This document shows, in pieces, positions 5,409 through 47,633 of a stretch of 64,000 nucleotides of DNA. The stretch is from positions 36,568 to 100,567 of the forward strand of contig SXHN01000079.1 of NCBI GenBank assembly GCA_005773635.1. The letters are read 5' to 3'. The stretch comes from Actinomycetota bacterium. GTDB lineage: Bacteria > Actinomycetota > Acidimicrobiia > IMCC26256 > PALSA-610. The translations under genes were made by a program, and so were the position numbers. A model generated the notes under the pieces. That model was given only the letters and a program-made list of their open reading frames with translations, ran no database searches and was not told the origin of the DNA. How positions within the stretch are numbered: the first letter of the stretch is position 1; the number at the start of each line of letters is the position of its first letter.

Positions 5409-7373
5409 CTACATGAGATTGCGTGCGAAGAAATCGAGGATGATTTCTGCACGCTGTACTCGGTGTTTTGGAGCGCCGCTGCGCGACAGTTCGTGACCCT
5501 CCCCAGGGAATCGCCAGAACTCGGGGGTCTTGCCGAGCAGACGCAGTGCGACAAACAGTTCTTCGGCTTGGTCGATGGGGCAGCGAAGATCGTTCTCACT
5601 GTGGAGTATTAACATCGGAGTGTTGATATTGCGTACGTAGGTCATCGGGGAGCAACGCACGTACGCCTCGCGGGCATCGAGATGCGAAGCTCCGACTTGT
5701 TCGATGAATGATGTTGCGACGTCGGAGTTGTGCTCTTCGGTTATGAGGTTGTTCACCGAGCGTTCGCTACAAGCGGCGCGGAATCGGTCGGTGTGGCCCA
5801 CGATCCACGTTGTGAGGTAGCCGCCGTAGCTTCCGCCTTGAATTCCGAGCCGGGTGCCATCGATCCAGTCGAACCGCGCGACCGCGGTGTCGACGCATGC
5901 CATCACATCATCGAAGTCGATGCCGCCCCAACCGGTGCCAGGATCCACTTCGCATTCGGGCCACCGAACCGCTCGACCCCACGCCTCTGAATATCCAGCA
6001 GATCCCCGAGGGTTGCAATACAGCACTGCGAATCCCGTGGCGACTTGTGTTTGAAATTCGTCGAAGAGTTTGTGGGTGTATTGCGTGAACGGCCCGCCGT
6101 GGATATTGAGAATGGTGGGAAACGGACCGGTGCCGTCGGGTCGGATCGCCCAACAATCGACGACCTCGCCGTCGGTGCTGGTTGCGGTGTATGCGATTGG
6201 TATTGCTGCTTCGCTTTGGGTAGCTGTTTGAAATTGTTGCGTGATCGTCGAGCACTGCGTGTGGTTGACGAAGAGTTCAGGCAATGACGATGCATCTCCG
6301 ACGATCGTGGCGAGCACGCCTGCGCGTGAGTCGAAATCGATGACGCAACGGTCGCCGCTCACGACGTCGACTATTTCAGTTGAGCGGATATTCGCCTGAG
6401 CAAGCGCATTCGAACCGCGATTCTCGTATGCAAATAGGAGATGGTCTGGGTCTTGCCACAACAACAACCGATTGTTGCCTGGGGGCGTGCAATTGCGGTC
6501 GAGTGCGGACGTGATGGTTCGTTGTGTTTGGTCACCCAGATCGATGACGACGACGTGGTTGTGGCACGGCCCCGCGAGTGGCGTCGCGTAACGAAAAGCC
6601 GCGATGCGTTCGCTGTCGGGCGACCAAATAGGTGATGCGTACATCGAGTCGGTTGGCGTGATGACTCCGACTGCTTCAGTCGCTAGGTCAAGGACCCATA
6701 GATCGCGCAGAAGGTCGAGATCCCAAGTTGTATGACGAGCCGAAGCAAACGCGATCTTGCAGCCGTCAGGAGACCACGAGATTTCGTTCACATCGAACGG
6801 ACCAAGGGTGCGCGCTATCAGAGTGGCTCCTGGTCGTGCCGCAACGGTGAACGCGCGGGATGGGCGATCGAAGAGCCATCCTTCGCCATCGAGGCGCGAG
6901 TAGAACCGTTCGATCTTGCGGGCGGGAGTGTCCTTGGGCTCGCGCGATTCACCGGGCGCGGCGTAGTAGGCGAGGTCTGGATCTCGGGCGACGAACGCGA
7001 GCGTTGACCCATCAGGAGACCAAGCGAGCTCGGTTGGACCTTCTGGCGGCGTGCAAATTTCGGTGACTTCAAGTGTTGCTATGTCGATGAGCGCCAGCTT
7101 GGTAACAGCATCATCGTCGCCGAGCGCTCGTAAGGTGCAAGCGACGACCGTGCCGTTGGGCGACCATCGTCCGAGGCTGCAGGCGAATCCGGACGGGGAG
7201 ATTGTGGTCAGTTCGCCGGTGGCTGTCGCGCACCGACGCAACGCAGATTCGTAACGATTTTCTGCGCTGTTCATTGTGGTTTCGGCGAAGATCACCGAAG
7301 TTCCGTCGGGGCTCACTTGTACATCGGTGAGCGAAATGAGATCGGTGATGTGCTGCGCTGTGAATCCCGCCAC
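5409..7373 (-). CDS. S9-family serine peptidase (prolyl oligopeptidase / acylaminoacyl-peptidase type)
   Basis: N-terminal beta-propeller repeats (WSPDG repeats) and a C-terminal alpha/beta-hydrolase domain with the GGSYGG nucleophile elbow and His/Asp triad context. Confidence 0.85.
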
Positions 7374-44794: not shown

Positions 44795-45289
44795 CTACGG
44801 AAGTGAAGGAAGCAATGCGCTGACTTCGTCGAGGATCCGAAACGTCGTTGTGTGCAGACAGTGCACGCGCACTCCGGCAGTTGTGTGGTCGGCCGCGAGT
44901 CGCAGGACTGCGTCAGAGTCGTTGACCAACACGATTGCACCGCCGCCGGTGTTGTTGATTTCGCTTGTGCCGTACTTCAAAAGGGATGCGAGTTGTGTCG
45001 CCGCGTTGTTGGTGCAGTCGACGATTGCGTGCAAGCCGCCTTCGAATTCGGCGGTGGCTTCGATGAGCGCCGCGACTTCGCCTTCGTCGCTGATGTCGAC
45101 GGTTTCCGCGCTGACTTCGCGGCCCGATGCGCGGAGGTTGTCCGCGACTTGTTGCGCTAAGCGTTCGTTGCTGTCGGAGTCGGCAACGATCACCTTCCAG
45201 CGGTCTCGCGCCATGCGTTCCACTAGGGCCTCACCGACCCCGGAGGCTCCTCCGACAACAATGGCAACGCGTTCCGATGTGTAAGCCAC
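44795..45289 (-). pseudogene. Short-chain dehydrogenase/reductase N-terminal fragment (probably truncated)
   Basis: Rossmann motif VGGASGVGEA but only 164 aa, and it lacks the YxxxK catalytic segment expected in the C-terminal half. Confidence 0.4.
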
Positions 45290-45384: not shown

Positions 45385-45909
45385 TCAGCGCCGCCAGGCG
45401 TCGGGATCGAAATTGTCGTCGTCTACGGGCGCCGGTGTTCGTTCCAGATCGGCGGCTGACAAGAAAAACTCCTTGTTGCGCAACACCAGCATCGCCGGGC
45501 GACCCTCGAGTGGTGGTCGCAAACCGCCGCGCGCGTTATCGACGCGGACTCGAATGGTGCGTTTGCCCTTTGCGGTCGGCATCGCGACTTTGCCGTCGCT
45601 GCTCCACTTGAATGCACCTGCAGGCAGTGTGAGCGACTGAAAACTGGAAAATTTTGGCTGTTTGCCCGCTCGTCGCGTGAGCGACGCCGCGACCCGTTCC
45701 ACGATTGGTGTGATGAACGGATCTGGAAGTTTCTGTGTGTCGACTACTTCTTTGACGACCTCGCGGAGTTCTTTTCCCGCAAATGCGCTGCGCTGTAACG
45801 CCGTAGCTCGGGCCGCGTTGCTCGCCCGATTCACTCGTTCCAGCGTGGCAGTGAGGAGTTGTTCTGTTTCTGGATCCGCAAGGATCTGCACTTCATCGAT
45901 TTCGGCCAT
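45385..45909 (-). CDS. Hypothetical protein, possibly a truncated remnant; weak resemblance to the N-terminal region of TnpB/OrfB-type proteins
   Basis: 174-aa ORF with basic stretches (PTAKGKRTIRVRVDNARGG). No full-length domain. It is adjacent to another truncated gene. Confidence 0.3.
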   Translation of the reverse strand: MAEIDEVQILADPETEQLLTATLERVNRASNAARATALQRSAFAGKELREVVKEVVDTQKLPDPFITPIVERVAASLTRRAGKQPKFSSFQSLTLPAGAFKWSSDGKVAMPTAKGKRTIRVRVDNARGGLRPPLEGRPAMLVLRNKEFFLSAADLERTPAPVDDDNFDPDAWRR

Positions 45910-45991: not shown

Positions 45992-46081
45992 CTAGGACCG
46001 CTTGCCTGCATTCGGCTTCTTGCCGTGGTTGGCCTTCTTACGCTTGGCGTTGAGTTTTCGCATTTTCGTCTTTTGGCTCAC
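45992..46081 (-). CDS. Ribosomal protein bL37 (tiny, 23-29 aa; the actinobacterial ribosomal protein family)
   Basis: Minus-strand translation (V)SQKTKMRKLNAKRKKANHGKKPNAGKRS*. The KANHGK(R/K)PN core matches my recollection of mycobacterial bL37. A GAGAGG SD lies 7 nt upstream of the GTG at 46081; the alternative ATG is at 46063. The gene is below the ORF-track length cut-off. Confidence 0.55.
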   Translation of the reverse strand: MSQKTKMRKLNAKRKKANHGKKPNAGKRS

Positions 46082-46181
46082 GGCATTACCTCTCTGTGGA
46101 ACTGATCTCCCTGAGCGTACTGGCTGGGCTCGGTGTTGCTCCTAACCGCACTGGGTGGGGAGGGTCAGTACCCTGGCGGAT

Positions 46182-46541
46182 ATGAGTGCCGTGGCGACGT
46201 CGCCAGGATGGCTAGTACGAGGCAGTGACGTGGTGATGGCGGCTGAGATCGCCGATACCCGCCGTGCTCGGCGGCGAGGTTTGATCGGCAGGGACCGACT
46301 CGTTGGTGCCTTTGTACTCCTCAAATGTCGCCACGTACATACCTTCGCCCTCAGGATCCCGATCGATGTAGCCATGTGCGACCGCGATGGCGTCGTGCTT
46401 GGGACGGCATCGATCGAGCCGCGGAAGTTCGGGCCGATTATTCGCCATTGTGCGTTGGTGGTGGAAATGCCCCTCGGTTCCATCGACCGACACCGAATCG
46501 CACGCGGCGATCGCCTCGAGATTCGACGCTGCGCGAAATGA
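46182..46541 (+). CDS. DUF192-family protein
   Basis: DUF192 signature region (AAEIADTRRARRRGLIGRDRL...LLKCRHVHTFALRIPIDVAMCDRDGVV). Confidence 0.6.
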   Translation: MSAVATSPGWLVRGSDVVMAAEIADTRRARRRGLIGRDRLVGAFVLLKCRHVHTFALRIPIDVAMCDRDGVVLGTASIEPRKFGPIIRHCALVVEMPLGSIDRHRIARGDRLEIRRCAK

Positions 46542-47404
46542 CCGGTCGCGTTGTGTTGGTTGCAACCCCGATCGGCAATCTCACGGATATCACGCTGCGG
46601 GCGTTGGAGGCCTTGCGTCTTGCTGATCGGATTTACGCCGAGGACACTCGTCATTCCCAGGGACTATTTAACGCTCACGGCATTGCCACCGCGGGCCGAC
46701 TTCGTTCCTTGCATGCACACAACGAACGCGAACGCTGCGCGGAAATTGTGCGCCTTGCCGCGGGTGGGGCCCTAATCGCGTACGTGAGTGATGCGGGCAC
46801 GCCAGGGATCAGTGACCCTGGTGCGGAGTTGGTGAGGGCATGTATCTCCGCGGACGTTCCCGTCGAAATGTTGCCTGGCGCGAATGCAGTGCTACCGGCT
46901 TTGGTGCTGTCGGGCTTGCCAACTGATGCGTTCACGTTTCATGGGTTCTTGGAACGAAAAGGTCCCGCGCGCTCGGGGCAACTCGAAATGATTCGAGTGT
47001 CGCTCGTCACTTCGGTGTTGTATGAGTCTCCTCGCCGCATCGCCGCCACACTCCAAGAACTTGGCGAGGCATGTGGCCTACATCGGCCGGCCGCAGTGGT
47101 TCGGGAACTCACCAAGATGTTCGAACAAGTGCGGCGCGCAACGATTGGCGAATTGCTTGCGTCGATCGGCGACCAAGAGATCCCTCAGCGCGGTGAATGC
47201 GTCCTAGTGGTGGGGCCGACGACAGCTTCCGCACAATCCTCGCCCGACGCGGGACGTATCGCCTTGGACATTGATGATCTACTGGCCAGCGGCATGCGGA
47301 CCCGCGACATCGCGGACTCGCTCAGCGCGCAATATGCGATACCCAAAAGGGACGTATACGAAATGGCAGTACTTCGCAGCAAACTCAGGCCGAAGCGACG
47401 CTGA
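46538..47404 (+). CDS. rsmI: 16S rRNA (cytidine1402-2'-O)-methyltransferase
   Basis: Tetrapyrrole-methylase fold with the RsmI N-terminus LVATPIGNLTDITLRALEAL. The start is at the internal MTGR (ATGA overlap with the DUF192 stop); the ORF-track upstream extension is spurious. Confidence 0.85.
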   Translation: MTGRVVLVATPIGNLTDITLRALEALRLADRIYAEDTRHSQGLFNAHGIATAGRLRSLHAHNERERCAEIVRLAAGGALIAYVSDAGTPGISDPGAELVRACISADVPVEMLPGANAVLPALVLSGLPTDAFTFHGFLERKGPARSGQLEMIRVSLVTSVLYESPRRIAATLQELGEACGLHRPAAVVRELTKMFEQVRRATIGELLASIGDQEIPQRGECVLVVGPTTASAQSSPDAGRIALDIDDLLASGMRTRDIADSLSAQYAIPKRDVYEMAVLRSKLRPKRR

Positions 47405-47633
47405 GCGTGTCGACGCACATCTTGCAGACCTGCTTTTCGCGGTATTCGATGAGCGCGTCGGTTGCGTCGCACAAGACGCAATGGTCCCAAGCCTTGCGCA
47501 GCACGATCTGATCGCCTTGTGCTTCTACCGCCAACAGATCGCCGCTATTGAGCCCGAGTACCTTGCGAAGATCGGCAGGCAATACGACTCGACCTAGTGC
47601 GTCAAGTCGACGGGTGGTTGCAAATGTCGTCAT
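47385..47633 (-). CDS. AbrB/MazE/SpoVT-family DNA-binding protein with C-terminal CxxC...CxxC
   Basis: RRLDALGRVVLPADLRKVLGLNSGDLLAV swapped-hairpin motif. The 3' end is convergent with, and overlaps, the rsmI end by 20 nt. Confidence 0.6.
   Translation of the reverse strand: MTTFATTRRLDALGRVVLPADLRKVLGLNSGDLLAVEAQGDQIVLRKAWDHCVLCDATDALIEYREKQVCKMCVDTLSVASA

What the first reader, a model, noticed from the sequence alone, without database searches (positions are those of the whole stretch)
45992..46081. Unlisted tiny gene for ribosomal protein bL37
The minus strand between two hypothetical genes encodes (V)SQKTKMRKLNAKRKKANHGKKPNAGKRS. The KANHGK(R/K)PNA core matches what I recall of bL37 found in mycobacterial ribosome structures. 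A GAGAGG Shine-Dalgarno lies 7 nt upstream of the GTG at 46081. At 23-29 codons it is invisible to the ORF track and is often missed by annotation pipelines.
Basis: partly seen in the sequence, partly recalled or inferred. Interest (0 to 1): 0.6.

Follow-up and report, generated by a model that had tools for sequence, protein, structure and literature searches.

The report
Unannotated divergent ribosomal protein bL37 gene
A 29-codon gene in an uncultured Acidimicrobiia genome is a real, selected, divergent copy of the tiny ribosomal protein bL37; annotation misses it because it is short and scores below NCBI's cutoff, but the protein family itself is already known.

Summary
The ORF exists exactly as described: window 45992..46081, minus strand, GTG start, GAGAGG 7 nt upstream, 29 aa. 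It is a real gene. Relatives chosen only by MetG similarity carry it at the same position in 6 of 8 loci. Against its three nearest relatives it shows 8-13 synonymous and 3-4 non-synonymous codon changes. A 10%-diverged copy differs at 9 sites, all third codon positions.

It is bL37. bL37 is the only family or solved structure it matches. Those scores are weak (NF047428 17.9 bits against a cutoff of 30; PDB E about 0.02). A profile of its own branch reaches C. acnes bL37 at E 1.6e-4. Its N-terminal half, which was not used in any search, matches the family (11/16; 0 of 5000 shuffles).

It also occupies the same locus, divergent from DUF192-rsmI-metG, as the 27-aa Acidimicrobiales peptides that NCBI already names bL37.

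The family is known, so novelty is small. The new points are a branch missed by annotation, a 4-residue basic C-terminal tail, and loss of the 'invariant' Asn in close relatives. Binding to the ribosome is inferred, not shown.

The parts
45992..46081 (-). Coding sequence of a 29-aa bL37 homologue (GTG start, TAG stop): MSQKTKMRKLNAKRKKANHGKKPNAGKRS. It has 12 Lys/Arg, no acidic residue and a calculated pI of about 12.
   Evidence: sequence; bL37 is the only match; purifying selection; found at the syntenic place in relatives chosen by MetG alone.
46007..46033 (-). Conserved core ANHGKKPNA (residues 17-25). It corresponds to the C-terminal loop motif ANHGKRPNA of M. smegmatis and C. acnes bL37.
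   Evidence: Alignments. A17 N18 H19 G20 K21 P23 are invariant in the 15-sequence branch alignment.
45995..46006 (-). Four-residue basic C-terminal tail (GKRS) that the 24-aa Actinomycetes bL37 lacks. G26 is invariant in the branch.
   Evidence: Every Acidimicrobiia-type copy has a 2-5 residue tail (CGRG, AGRR, AGKRS).
46089..46094 (-). Shine-Dalgarno-like GAGAGG, 7 nt before the GTG.
   Evidence: An SD-like GGAG/GAGG is evident 5-8 nt upstream in L090 and L124-L130; the three nearest relatives, L131-L133, have only a purine-rich GAAAGAG there.
46114..46119 (-). Candidate -10 promoter hexamer TACGCT (TANNNT), 32 nt before the start. This is inferred only.
   Evidence: Most relatives of this branch (6 of 7 metagenome loci, not L127) have TAGCCT or TATCCT 25-33 nt upstream. 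The sigma-70 consensus scan found nothing here.

Best explanation
This is the bL37 gene of an uncultured Acidimicrobiia bacterium (phylum Actinomycetota). It encodes a 29-residue, very basic peptide. By homology with the bL37 seen in cryo-EM structures of M. smegmatis, M. tuberculosis and C. acnes ribosomes, the peptide is expected to be a structural part of the 50S subunit. Its N-terminal basic stretch would form a short helix. Its ANHGKKPNA segment would form a loop inside the rRNA pocket made by 23S helices H39, H40, H41/42, H72 and H89 and the tip of 5S rRNA, near the peptidyl-transferase centre, where it would stabilise that region. What is shown: the ORF exists, it is under purifying selection, it is homologous to bL37, and it is the positional orthologue of Acidimicrobiales genes that NCBI names bL37. 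What is inferred: it is translated from the GTG using the GAGAGG Shine-Dalgarno; it is probably transcribed on its own from a promoter about 30 nt upstream; it binds the ribosome; and its extra GKRS tail makes further rRNA backbone contacts.
For: Identity: NF047428 (bL37) is the only NCBIfam hit (E 0.0026). The five best PDB sequence hits are bL37 chains from three species. A profile of 15 peptides from the window's branch, all below cutoff, hits 8crx_V bL37 at E 1.6e-4, and all 15 members match NF047428. Independent half: the 16 N-terminal residues, absent from every search pattern, are 11/16 identical to family members (0 of 5000 composition-preserving shuffles reach this) and score 13.7 bits on the family's N-terminal HMM (6 of 5000 shuffles). 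Bridge sequences: MSKRTVKRKLRAKKKANHGKKPNCGRG scores 39 bits, above the cutoff of 30, and NCBI names it '50S ribosomal protein bL37 [Acidimicrobiales bacterium]'; AG-tail forms score 22-28 bits. Position: in tail-bearing loci DUF192, RsmI and MetG are always upstream and divergent, as in the window (41, 64 and 51 loci; RsmI in 53 of the 60 loci with at least 1.5 kb upstream). Unbiased test: 6 of 8 loci chosen only by MetG identity (69-80%) have the ORF next to that cluster. The three nearest have it between the hyp174 homologue and DUF192. Selection: window against L090 shows 9 differences, all third position, with no amino-acid change. Window against L131-133 shows 8-13 synonymous and 3-4 non-synonymous codons, with ORF identity 77-80% against 56-68% in the flanks. 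Across 72 loci, entropy is 0.36/0.28/0.84 bits at codon positions 1/2/3 against about 1.8 bits in the flanks. Copy number: the 120 hits lie in 120 different assemblies. Function of the family.
Against: The peptide alone fails NCBI's curated cutoff (17.9 against 30 bits) and aligns to only the C-terminal half of that model; single-sequence PDB E-values are marginal (0.016-0.05). No ribosome structure, proteomics or expression data exist for any Acidimicrobiia member, so incorporation into the 50S subunit is untested. The peptide has one extra residue before the core and four after it, and the bL37 pocket is described as enclosed, so the fit of the tail is unknown. The Asn after Pro, conserved in all solved bL37, is Leu or Arg in the nearest relatives, which shows relaxed constraints in this branch. 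Only 64 kb of the genome was seen, so a second, more canonical copy elsewhere cannot be excluded. Two of the eight MetG-selected relatives lack the ORF within 6 kb.
Confidence: 0.86

Rival explanations
1. It is a chance ORF. An intergenic stretch happens to translate into a lysine-rich peptide resembling bL37, and no gene exists.
For: The ORF is very short. Database scores are marginal. No gene caller reports it on this contig. No consensus promoter or terminator was found.
Against: The reading frame is conserved with mostly synonymous change in relatives chosen independently of the peptide. Window against L090 shows 9 of 9 differences at third positions. The DNA pattern is found at least 120 times against about 9 expected, always at the end of a tiny ORF with a start codon. 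The N-terminal half matches the family independently.
Confidence: 0.01
2. It is a true bL37 homologue, but in this lineage it works mainly off the ribosome, for example as a secreted or released antimicrobial peptide or a general nucleic-acid binder.
For: Synthetic C. acnes bL37 inhibited growth of Gram-positive bacteria in disk assays. This branch has lost the conserved Asn in close relatives and gained a basic tail, which could signal altered constraints.
Against: There is no signal peptide, export gene or immunity gene nearby. The gene is one per assembly and occupies the same locus as bL37 genes across the class, next to translation genes rsmI, metG and ksgA. The core that sits in the rRNA pocket (ANHGK.P) is the invariant part.
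Confidence: 0.05
3. It is an upstream leader or regulatory ORF whose translation controls the downstream 174-aa gene on the same strand, and the peptide product itself is unimportant.
For: The 174-aa gene starts 82 nt downstream on the same strand. Its homologues follow the tiny ORF throughout the window's branch. No terminator was detected between the two genes.
Against: Outside this branch the 174-aa gene is absent from all 120 loci, yet the peptide is conserved. Selection acts on the amino-acid sequence, not merely on the presence of an ORF. In four relatives the 174-aa gene lies about 1 kb away. The 174-aa gene has its own conserved CTAC(G/C)ATC element 10-12 nt before its ATG.
Confidence: 0.03
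4. It is a second, divergent paralogue of bL37, an alternative ribosomal protein, and the genome encodes a canonical copy outside the window.
For: Only 64 kb of the genome could be inspected. Actinobacteria are known to carry alternative paralogues of some ribosomal proteins. The peptide is unusually divergent (17.9 bits).
Against: It occupies the locus where the only detected bL37 gene lies in other Acidimicrobiia. Divergence is graded with phylogenetic distance rather than bimodal.
Confidence: 0.05

Closest known systems
bL37 of Mycobacterium smegmatis, M. tuberculosis and Cutibacterium acnes (24 aa; PDB 5O60 chain 3, 7KGB chain v, 8CRX chain V; NCBIfam NF047428 ribo_Myco_bL37)
   Same: It is a tiny, extremely basic peptide (pI about 12 in both). 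It has a basic N-terminal stretch followed by the core ANHGK(K/R)PNA, which matches M. smegmatis and C. acnes bL37 at 8 of 9 positions plus one Lys/Arg exchange. Nothing else in PDB or NCBIfam resembles it.
   Different: It has 29 residues rather than 24: one more before the core and a GKRS tail after it. The N-terminal half differs (SQKTKMRKLNAKRK against AKRGRKKRDRKHS). It scores 17.9 bits against a family cutoff of 30. Its genomic locus differs: the 38 Actinomycetes-type loci show no DUF192, RsmI or MetG neighbour. No structure exists for it.
Acidimicrobiales peptides that NCBI annotates as '50S ribosomal protein bL37' (27 aa, e.g. MSKRTVKRKLRAKKKANHGKKPNCGRG; MGC8498228.1)
   Same: They belong to the same class of bacteria. 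They sit at the same locus, divergent from DUF192-rsmI-metG. They have the same layout, including a short basic C-terminal tail beginning x-Gly. Residues M1, S2, K4, T5, R8, K9, L10, A12, K13 and the core are shared.
   Different: The window's branch is 29 aa, usually has an AG rather than a CG tail, and falls below the NCBI cutoff, so it is unnamed or 'hypothetical' everywhere. The common form appears leaderless (TANNNT 4-10 nt before the start, no SD), whereas the window's copy has an SD and a short leader.
Other occupants of the same 23S/5S pocket: the N-terminal extension of Borrelia uL30 and Coxiella CLaSP
   Same: According to the published structures these fill the same cleft near H39-H42, H89 and the 5S tip, presumably for the same stabilising role.
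   Different: No sequence relationship was detected, and none of them appears among the hits. They are analogues rather than relatives, and one of them is part of a larger protein.
Planctomycetota bL37 (NCBIfam NF047429 ribo_Plancto_bL37, 32-position model)
   Same: It carries the same protein name, and some Acidimicrobiia forms match it weakly (13.5 bits).
   Different: The window's peptide gives no reportable match to this model. Only 1 of the 15 branch members matches it, at E 0.021.

Membership tests
bL37 (NF047428, ribo_Myco_bL37) | Scores at or above the curated NCBIfam cutoff (30 bits) | tested here: not met
   17.9 bits, E 0.0026, aligned to model positions 12-24 only. All 15 peptides of its branch are also below cutoff, the best at 27.7 bits.
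bL37 (NF047428, ribo_Myco_bL37) | Conserved C-terminal core (K/G)ANHGK(R/K)PN(A/S/T) | tested here: met
   KANHGKKPNA at residues 16-25. It aligns without gaps to KANHGKRPNA of M. smegmatis bL37 and GANHGKRPNA of C. acnes bL37.
bL37 (NF047428, ribo_Myco_bL37) | Tiny size (about 24 aa), strongly basic, N-terminal Lys/Arg-rich segment | tested here: met
   29 aa, 12 Lys+Arg, no Asp or Glu, pI about 12, against 24 aa, 11 Lys+Arg and pI about 12 for M. smegmatis. The N-terminal half matches family members at 11/16, with 0 of 5000 shuffles reaching that.
bL37 (NF047428, ribo_Myco_bL37) | Linked to accepted members through intermediate sequences or a profile | tested here: met
   The branch profile hits 8crx_V at E 1.6e-4, and the top five PDB hits are all bL37. 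Scores are graded at 17.9, 22.5, 26.4, 27.7 and 39 bits across Acidimicrobiia forms.
bL37 (NF047428, ribo_Myco_bL37) | Positional orthology with genes already named bL37 in the same class | tested here: met
   It lies divergent from DUF192-rsmI-metG, as RsmI does in 53 of the 60 tail-bearing loci with enough flank. Those loci include the sequences NCBI names bL37.
bL37 (NF047428, ribo_Myco_bL37) | Protein-coding constraint (purifying selection on the peptide) | tested here: met
   Window against L090: 9 of 9 differences at third positions. Branch pairs: 220 synonymous against 74 non-synonymous codons. Window against L131-133: 8-13 synonymous against 3-4 non-synonymous.
bL37 (NF047428, ribo_Myco_bL37) | Physically bound in the 50S pocket formed by H39/H40/H72/H89 and the 5S tip; helix plus loop fold | not testable with these tools
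   This is known only from cryo-EM of Mycobacterium and Cutibacterium. The peptide is below the 30-aa minimum of the structure predictor, and an isolated model would not test rRNA binding.
bL37 (NF047428, ribo_Myco_bL37) | Single copy per genome | tested here: inconclusive
   There is one copy in the 64-kb window, and 120 pattern hits fall in 120 different assemblies. The rest of this genome was not available, and the scan was truncated.
Planctomycetota bL37 (NF047429) | Match to the 32-position model at 40 bits or more | tested here: not met
   No reportable match for the window's peptide at E up to 10.

The most novel reading that the evidence does not exclude
The tail-bearing 27-29-aa form is a distinct structural variant of bL37. 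Its extra basic C-terminal residues and tolerance of Leu or Arg in place of the 'invariant' Asn would reflect a remodelled 23S/5S pocket in Acidimicrobiia. Together with the Omnitrophota hit (L074) and the Planctomycetota model NF047429, this would make bL37 an older and more widespread ribosomal protein than the 'Actinobacteria-specific' label in the literature implies.
Probability: 0.3. Interest if true: 0.4.

Novelty: new member of a known kind. Interest (0 to 1): 0.22.

Why it matters
Mainly as an annotation correction. An entire branch of Acidimicrobiia, including the cultured freshwater isolate IMCC26256, has a ribosomal protein gene that pipelines either skip or label 'hypothetical'. 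The cause is its length of 27-29 codons and a score of 18-28 bits against a cutoff of 30. Lowering that cutoff, or adding an Acidimicrobiia seed, would recover it. It also shows which bL37 positions are truly invariant across two actinobacterial classes (A-N-H-G-K-x-P) and which are not (the following Asn, and the C-terminus). That is useful to anyone modelling this pocket near the peptidyl-transferase centre as a drug target. It does not open a new biological question.

Tried and rejected
1. The peptide was too short for the search for homologous proteins and the search for related loci, so I replaced them with degenerate DNA pattern scans.

2. Pfam has no family for the peptide. Rfam finds no RNA family over the region. 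The promoter and terminator consensus scans found nothing.

3. The three public copies of the same contig are identical over the ORF and so say nothing about selection.

4. L090, which has an identical peptide, looked like a close relative. It is a chimeric contig end attached to betaproteobacterial genes, so I used it only for the ORF comparison and not for synteny.

5. My first motif scan of the MetG-selected loci found nothing. The regex demanded Asn, Ser or Asp after the proline, which was an error. A looser pattern found the ORF in 6 of 8 loci.

6. My automatic start picker chose the internal Met in L124-L130. I corrected it by inspection to the ATG or GTG 18 nt upstream.

7. Structure prediction was not attempted.

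8. The organism could not be named from its own records, because the GenBank MAG carries no names in this collection. I inferred the class from MetG relatives instead.

Full report
**Observation**

The minus strand of the window carries an ORF at 45992..46081. It has a GTG start and a TAG stop and translates to (V/M)SQKTKMRKLNAKRKKANHGKKPNAGKRS, 29 aa. GAGAGG lies at 46094..46089, 7 nt before the GTG. A stop codon precedes the GTG in frame, so the ORF cannot be longer.

It sits in a 320-nt gap between two genes. One is a 174-aa ORF with no recognisable family (45385..45909, same strand, downstream). The other is a DUF192 gene (46230..46541, opposite strand, divergent). DUF192 is followed by rsmI, an AbrB/MazE-like gene, metG, tatD, ksgA and ispE.

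The window is nearly identical to contig SYFP01000180.1 of MAG GCA_005800425.1. On that contig and on two further public copies, gene callers left the gap empty. No Rfam family overlaps the region. The motif NHG[KR][KR]PN occurs only once in the six frames of the window.

**Is it bL37 by direct comparison?**

bL37 is the only answer from either library, but the match is weak.
- NCBIfam NF047428 (ribo_Myco_bL37) is the sole hit: 17.9 bits, E 0.0026, against a curated cutoff of 30. Only model positions 12-24 align.
- Pfam has no match.
- Against all PDB chain sequences, the five hits are the bL37 chains of C. acnes (8CRX), M. smegmatis (5O60, 6DZI) and M. tuberculosis (7KGB, 7SFR), at E 0.016-0.18. 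KANHGKKPNA aligns to (K/G)ANHGKRPN(A/S).

Direct comparison is therefore suggestive but not sufficient on its own.

**Relatives found through the peptide**

The protein-search tools refuse queries this short. I instead scanned 185,579 species-representative genomes with GCNAAYCAYGGNAARAARCCNAAY, a back-translation of ANHGKKPN. By my own calculation from the pattern's degeneracy, about 9 matches are expected by chance.

Nearly all are Actinomycetota and most are Acidimicrobiales or Acidimicrobiaceae MAGs. Every match lies at the 3' end of a tiny ORF; two are cut off by the edge of the stored stretch.
- 38 loci have the 24-aa form MSKRARKRRDRKKNGANHGKKPN(A/T/S). These come from Amycolatopsis, Pseudonocardia, Janibacter and similar genera.
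- 80 loci have a 26-29-aa form with a short basic tail, typically MSKRT(V/N)KRKLRAKKKANHGKKPNCGRG. Rarer variants end in AGRR, AGRRS or AGR and resemble the window's peptide more closely.

**Link to accepted bL37**

The common tail-bearing form scores 39 bits on NF047428, above the cutoff. NCBI records name it 'MAG: 50S ribosomal protein bL37 [Acidimicrobiales bacterium]'. The Pseudonocardiaceae 24-aa form scores 52 bits and is also named bL37. The AG-tail forms score 22.5-27.7 bits, and the window's peptide 17.9. Divergence is therefore graded across one family, and the curated cutoff passes through the middle of it.

The below-cutoff peptides are absent from the 15-billion-protein collection, unnamed in it, or called 'hypothetical protein' (JGI, ENA).

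I built a profile from 15 below-cutoff peptides only: the window's own, its branch, and the AG-tail forms (alignment A1). It hits C. acnes bL37 at E 1.6e-4, with the other bL37 chains following. All 15 members match NF047428.

**Independent test on the unselected half**

The 16 residues before ANHG were not part of any search pattern. The window's N-terminus, MSQKTKMRKLNAKRKK, is 11/16 identical to MSKKTSKRRTNAKRKK and to MSKKTKKRKLKARRNK. None of 5000 shuffles that preserve its composition reaches 11/16 against any family member. On an HMM built from the family's N-termini it scores 13.7 bits, against a shuffle mean of 1.4, and 6 of 5000 shuffles reach that score.

**Position in the genome**

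In the tail-bearing loci the window's DUF192, RsmI and MetG have homologues in 41, 64 and 51 loci. They are always upstream of the tiny ORF and on the opposite strand, which is the window's arrangement. RsmI is present in 53 of the 60 loci with at least 1.5 kb of upstream sequence. None of the 38 Actinomycetes-type loci shows this neighbourhood. The window's ORF is thus the positional orthologue of the Acidimicrobiales genes that NCBI names bL37.

**Unbiased test**

All the loci above were selected through the peptide. I therefore searched with MetG. Its nearest named relatives, at about 70% identity, are 'Acidimicrobiia bacterium' MAGs and isolate IMCC26256, which places the organism in Acidimicrobiia. 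I then fetched eight loci chosen by MetG identity alone, 80% down to 69%.

My first scan of these found nothing, because my regex required Asn, Ser or Asp after the proline. A looser pattern found the ORF in six of the eight.
- **L131 and L132** (MetG 80% and 78%): VSKKSKMRKLNAKRKKANHGKKPLAGKRS.
- **L133** (73%): the same peptide with MRRL.
- **L135 and L136** (L136 is IMCC26256): MSKK(S/T)KKR(R/K)LRARR(S/N)KANHGKRPLVGRR.
- **L138**: MSKKTKKRRLKARRNKANHGKRPRAGR.

In the three closest relatives the ORF lies exactly between the hyp174 homologue and DUF192. In L135, L136 and L138 a ychF gene sits between the ORF and DUF192. L134 and L137 have a different gene order upstream of DUF192 and no such ORF within 6 kb.

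A metagenome scan for NAKRKKANHGKKPN added seven more loci with MPKKTKMR(K/R)LNAKRKKANHGKKPNAGK(R/H/K)S. These are also 29 aa. All seven have hyp174 downstream; the three with enough flanking sequence also show the DUF192-rsmI-metG cluster upstream.

**Selection**

| Comparison | Result |
|---|---|
| Window vs L090 (90% identical DNA) | 9 differences, all third position: 8 synonymous, 1 TAG to TAA. (1/3)^9 is about 5e-5 |
| Nine 29-codon versions, all pairs | 220 synonymous vs 74 non-synonymous codons; nucleotide differences 98/72/280 at positions 1/2/3 |
| Window vs L131, L132, L133 | 11/3, 13/3 and 8/4 synonymous/non-synonymous codons; ORF identity 77-80% vs 56-68% in 50-nt flanks |
| 72 distinct 27-codon loci | Column entropy 0.36/0.28/0.84 bits at positions 1/2/3 vs 1.74 and 1.80 bits in 60-nt flanks |

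This is the signature of a translated gene in this frame.

**Start codon and expression signals**

The GTG at 46081 is the start, for three reasons. Residues 2-6 are conserved. Met7 is Lys in L135, L136, L138 and the AG-tail forms. The SD precedes the GTG, not the internal ATG.

In the window's branch, L090 and the seven metagenome loci have an SD-like GGAG/GAGG 5-8 nt upstream, and six of those seven also have a TANNNT hexamer 25-33 nt upstream. The three nearest relatives have only a purine-rich GAAAGAG before the GTG. In the window the hexamer is TACGCT at 46119..46114.

By contrast, 75 of 81 tail-bearing loci have TANNNT 4-10 nt before the start codon, against a background of 0.010. They have SD-like sequences only at the background rate. 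That is the expected look of leaderless mRNAs. All 38 Actinomycetes loci have an SD. These promoter readings are inference from sequence only; the generic sigma-70 and terminator scans found nothing.

**How it most likely works**

In cryo-EM structures, bL37 is an N-terminal helix of about 13 residues followed by a C-terminal loop. It is buried in a pocket formed by 23S helices H39, H40, H41/42, H72 and H89 under the tip of 5S rRNA, next to the peptidyl-transferase centre. It is thought to stabilise H89 and to link 5S rRNA to the functional centres (PMC5876184, PMC10085706, PMC6101614).

By homology, the window's peptide should do the same. The positions invariant in its branch (A17 N18 H19 G20 K21 P23) are those of the loop motif. 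The extra residues are all basic or small and lie at the C-terminal end; I infer that they add contacts with the rRNA backbone.

The same pocket is filled by a uL30 extension in Borrelia and by an unrelated peptide, CLaSP, in Coxiella. Filling it therefore seems to be a recurrent solution. Ribosome binding of any Acidimicrobiia bL37 has not been observed.

**Rivals**

- **Chance ORF:** excluded by the conservation pattern.
- **Leader ORF for the 174-aa gene:** unlikely. That gene is absent from all 120 loci of the genome scan, which span the wider family, while the peptide sequence is conserved there. It also carries its own conserved CTAC(G/C)ATC element 10-12 nt before its ATG.
- **Extraribosomal role:** cannot be excluded, given the antimicrobial activity reported for C. 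acnes bL37. Nothing in the locus supports it.
- **Divergent second paralogue:** cannot be excluded from 64 kb. The locus is the one where other Acidimicrobiia keep their only detected copy, and the 120 hits fall in 120 different assemblies.

**Verdict**

The family is already known, and NCBI already annotates it in many Acidimicrobiales. The new points are modest:
- this branch falls below the curated cutoff and is unannotated;
- it carries a longer basic tail;
- its close relatives replace the supposedly invariant Asn.

I classify it as a new member of a known kind, of low to moderate interest.

Noticed in passing
L004-L123 (upstream 25 nt of each tiny ORF); window 46082..46126: The translation signal differs by clade. 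75 of 81 tail-bearing Acidimicrobiia bL37 loci have TANNNT 4-10 nt before the start codon (background 0.010) and no SD, which suggests leaderless mRNAs. All 38 Actinomycetes 24-aa loci have an SD. The window's branch has an SD-like or purine-rich stretch before the start, and most copies also have a TANNNT about 25-33 nt upstream.
   Followed up: partly
L131 860-949, L132 4196-4285, L133 4159-4248, L135 3189-3275, L136 3187-3273, L138 4476-4559 (all minus strand): The Asn of the bL37 core ...GK(K/R)PN..., present in every solved bL37, is Leu or Arg in the window's nearest relatives and in the cultured isolate IMCC26256 (CP011489.1). None of these ORFs was called as a gene in those records.
   Followed up: partly
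L074 (JACKFK010000005.1, Candidatus Omnitrophota MAG), around 6950-7060, plus strand: A bL37-like ORF, MGKRKRRGKLNWRSKKANHGKKPNRG, with an AAGGAG SD lies outside Actinomycetota (15.7 bits on NF047428). NCBIfam also holds a separate Planctomycetota bL37 model (NF047429). The family may therefore extend into the PVC group, contrary to the 'Actinobacteria-specific' label in the papers.
   Followed up: no
L090 (JANMIH010000543.1, 'Polaromonas sp.' MAG), 2880-2998: This 3-kb contig carries GroES, an enoyl-ACP reductase and a truncated PHA synthase of betaproteobacterial type. Its last ~120 nt are 90% identical to the window's bL37 gene plus SD, so it is most likely a chimeric assembly join. L011 ('Acidobacteria' MAG) and L086 ('Bifidobacterium breve' MAG) also carry Acidimicrobiia-type peptides and look mis-binned.
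   Followed up: partly
window 45385..45909 (minus strand): This 174-aa ORF has no Pfam or NCBIfam family. Homologues at 61-67% identity lie downstream of bL37 on the same strand throughout the window's branch, but the gene is absent from all 120 loci of the genome scan, which cover the wider family. A conserved CTAC(G/C)ATC lies 10-12 nt before its ATG, which may be a leaderless promoter.
   Followed up: partly
window 47385..47633 (minus strand): An 82-aa AbrB/MazE-family gene is convergent with rsmI and overlaps its 3' end by 20 nt. It is conserved between rsmI and metG in most relatives. No toxin partner is adjacent, so it is more likely an AbrB-type regulator than an antitoxin.
   Followed up: no
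window 44795..45289 (minus strand): This short-chain dehydrogenase ORF has only 164 aa and matches just the first ~87 of 195 positions of the adh_short model. It appears truncated, yet similar short versions (168-183 aa) occur in relatives.
   Followed up: no
L134 and L137 (MetG 72% and 71% identical to the window's): No bL37-like ORF lies within 6 kb of metG. Upstream of DUF192 these loci have CoA-transferase, surE and kdpDE instead. Either the gene has moved elsewhere or it is lost in that sub-lineage.
   Followed up: no
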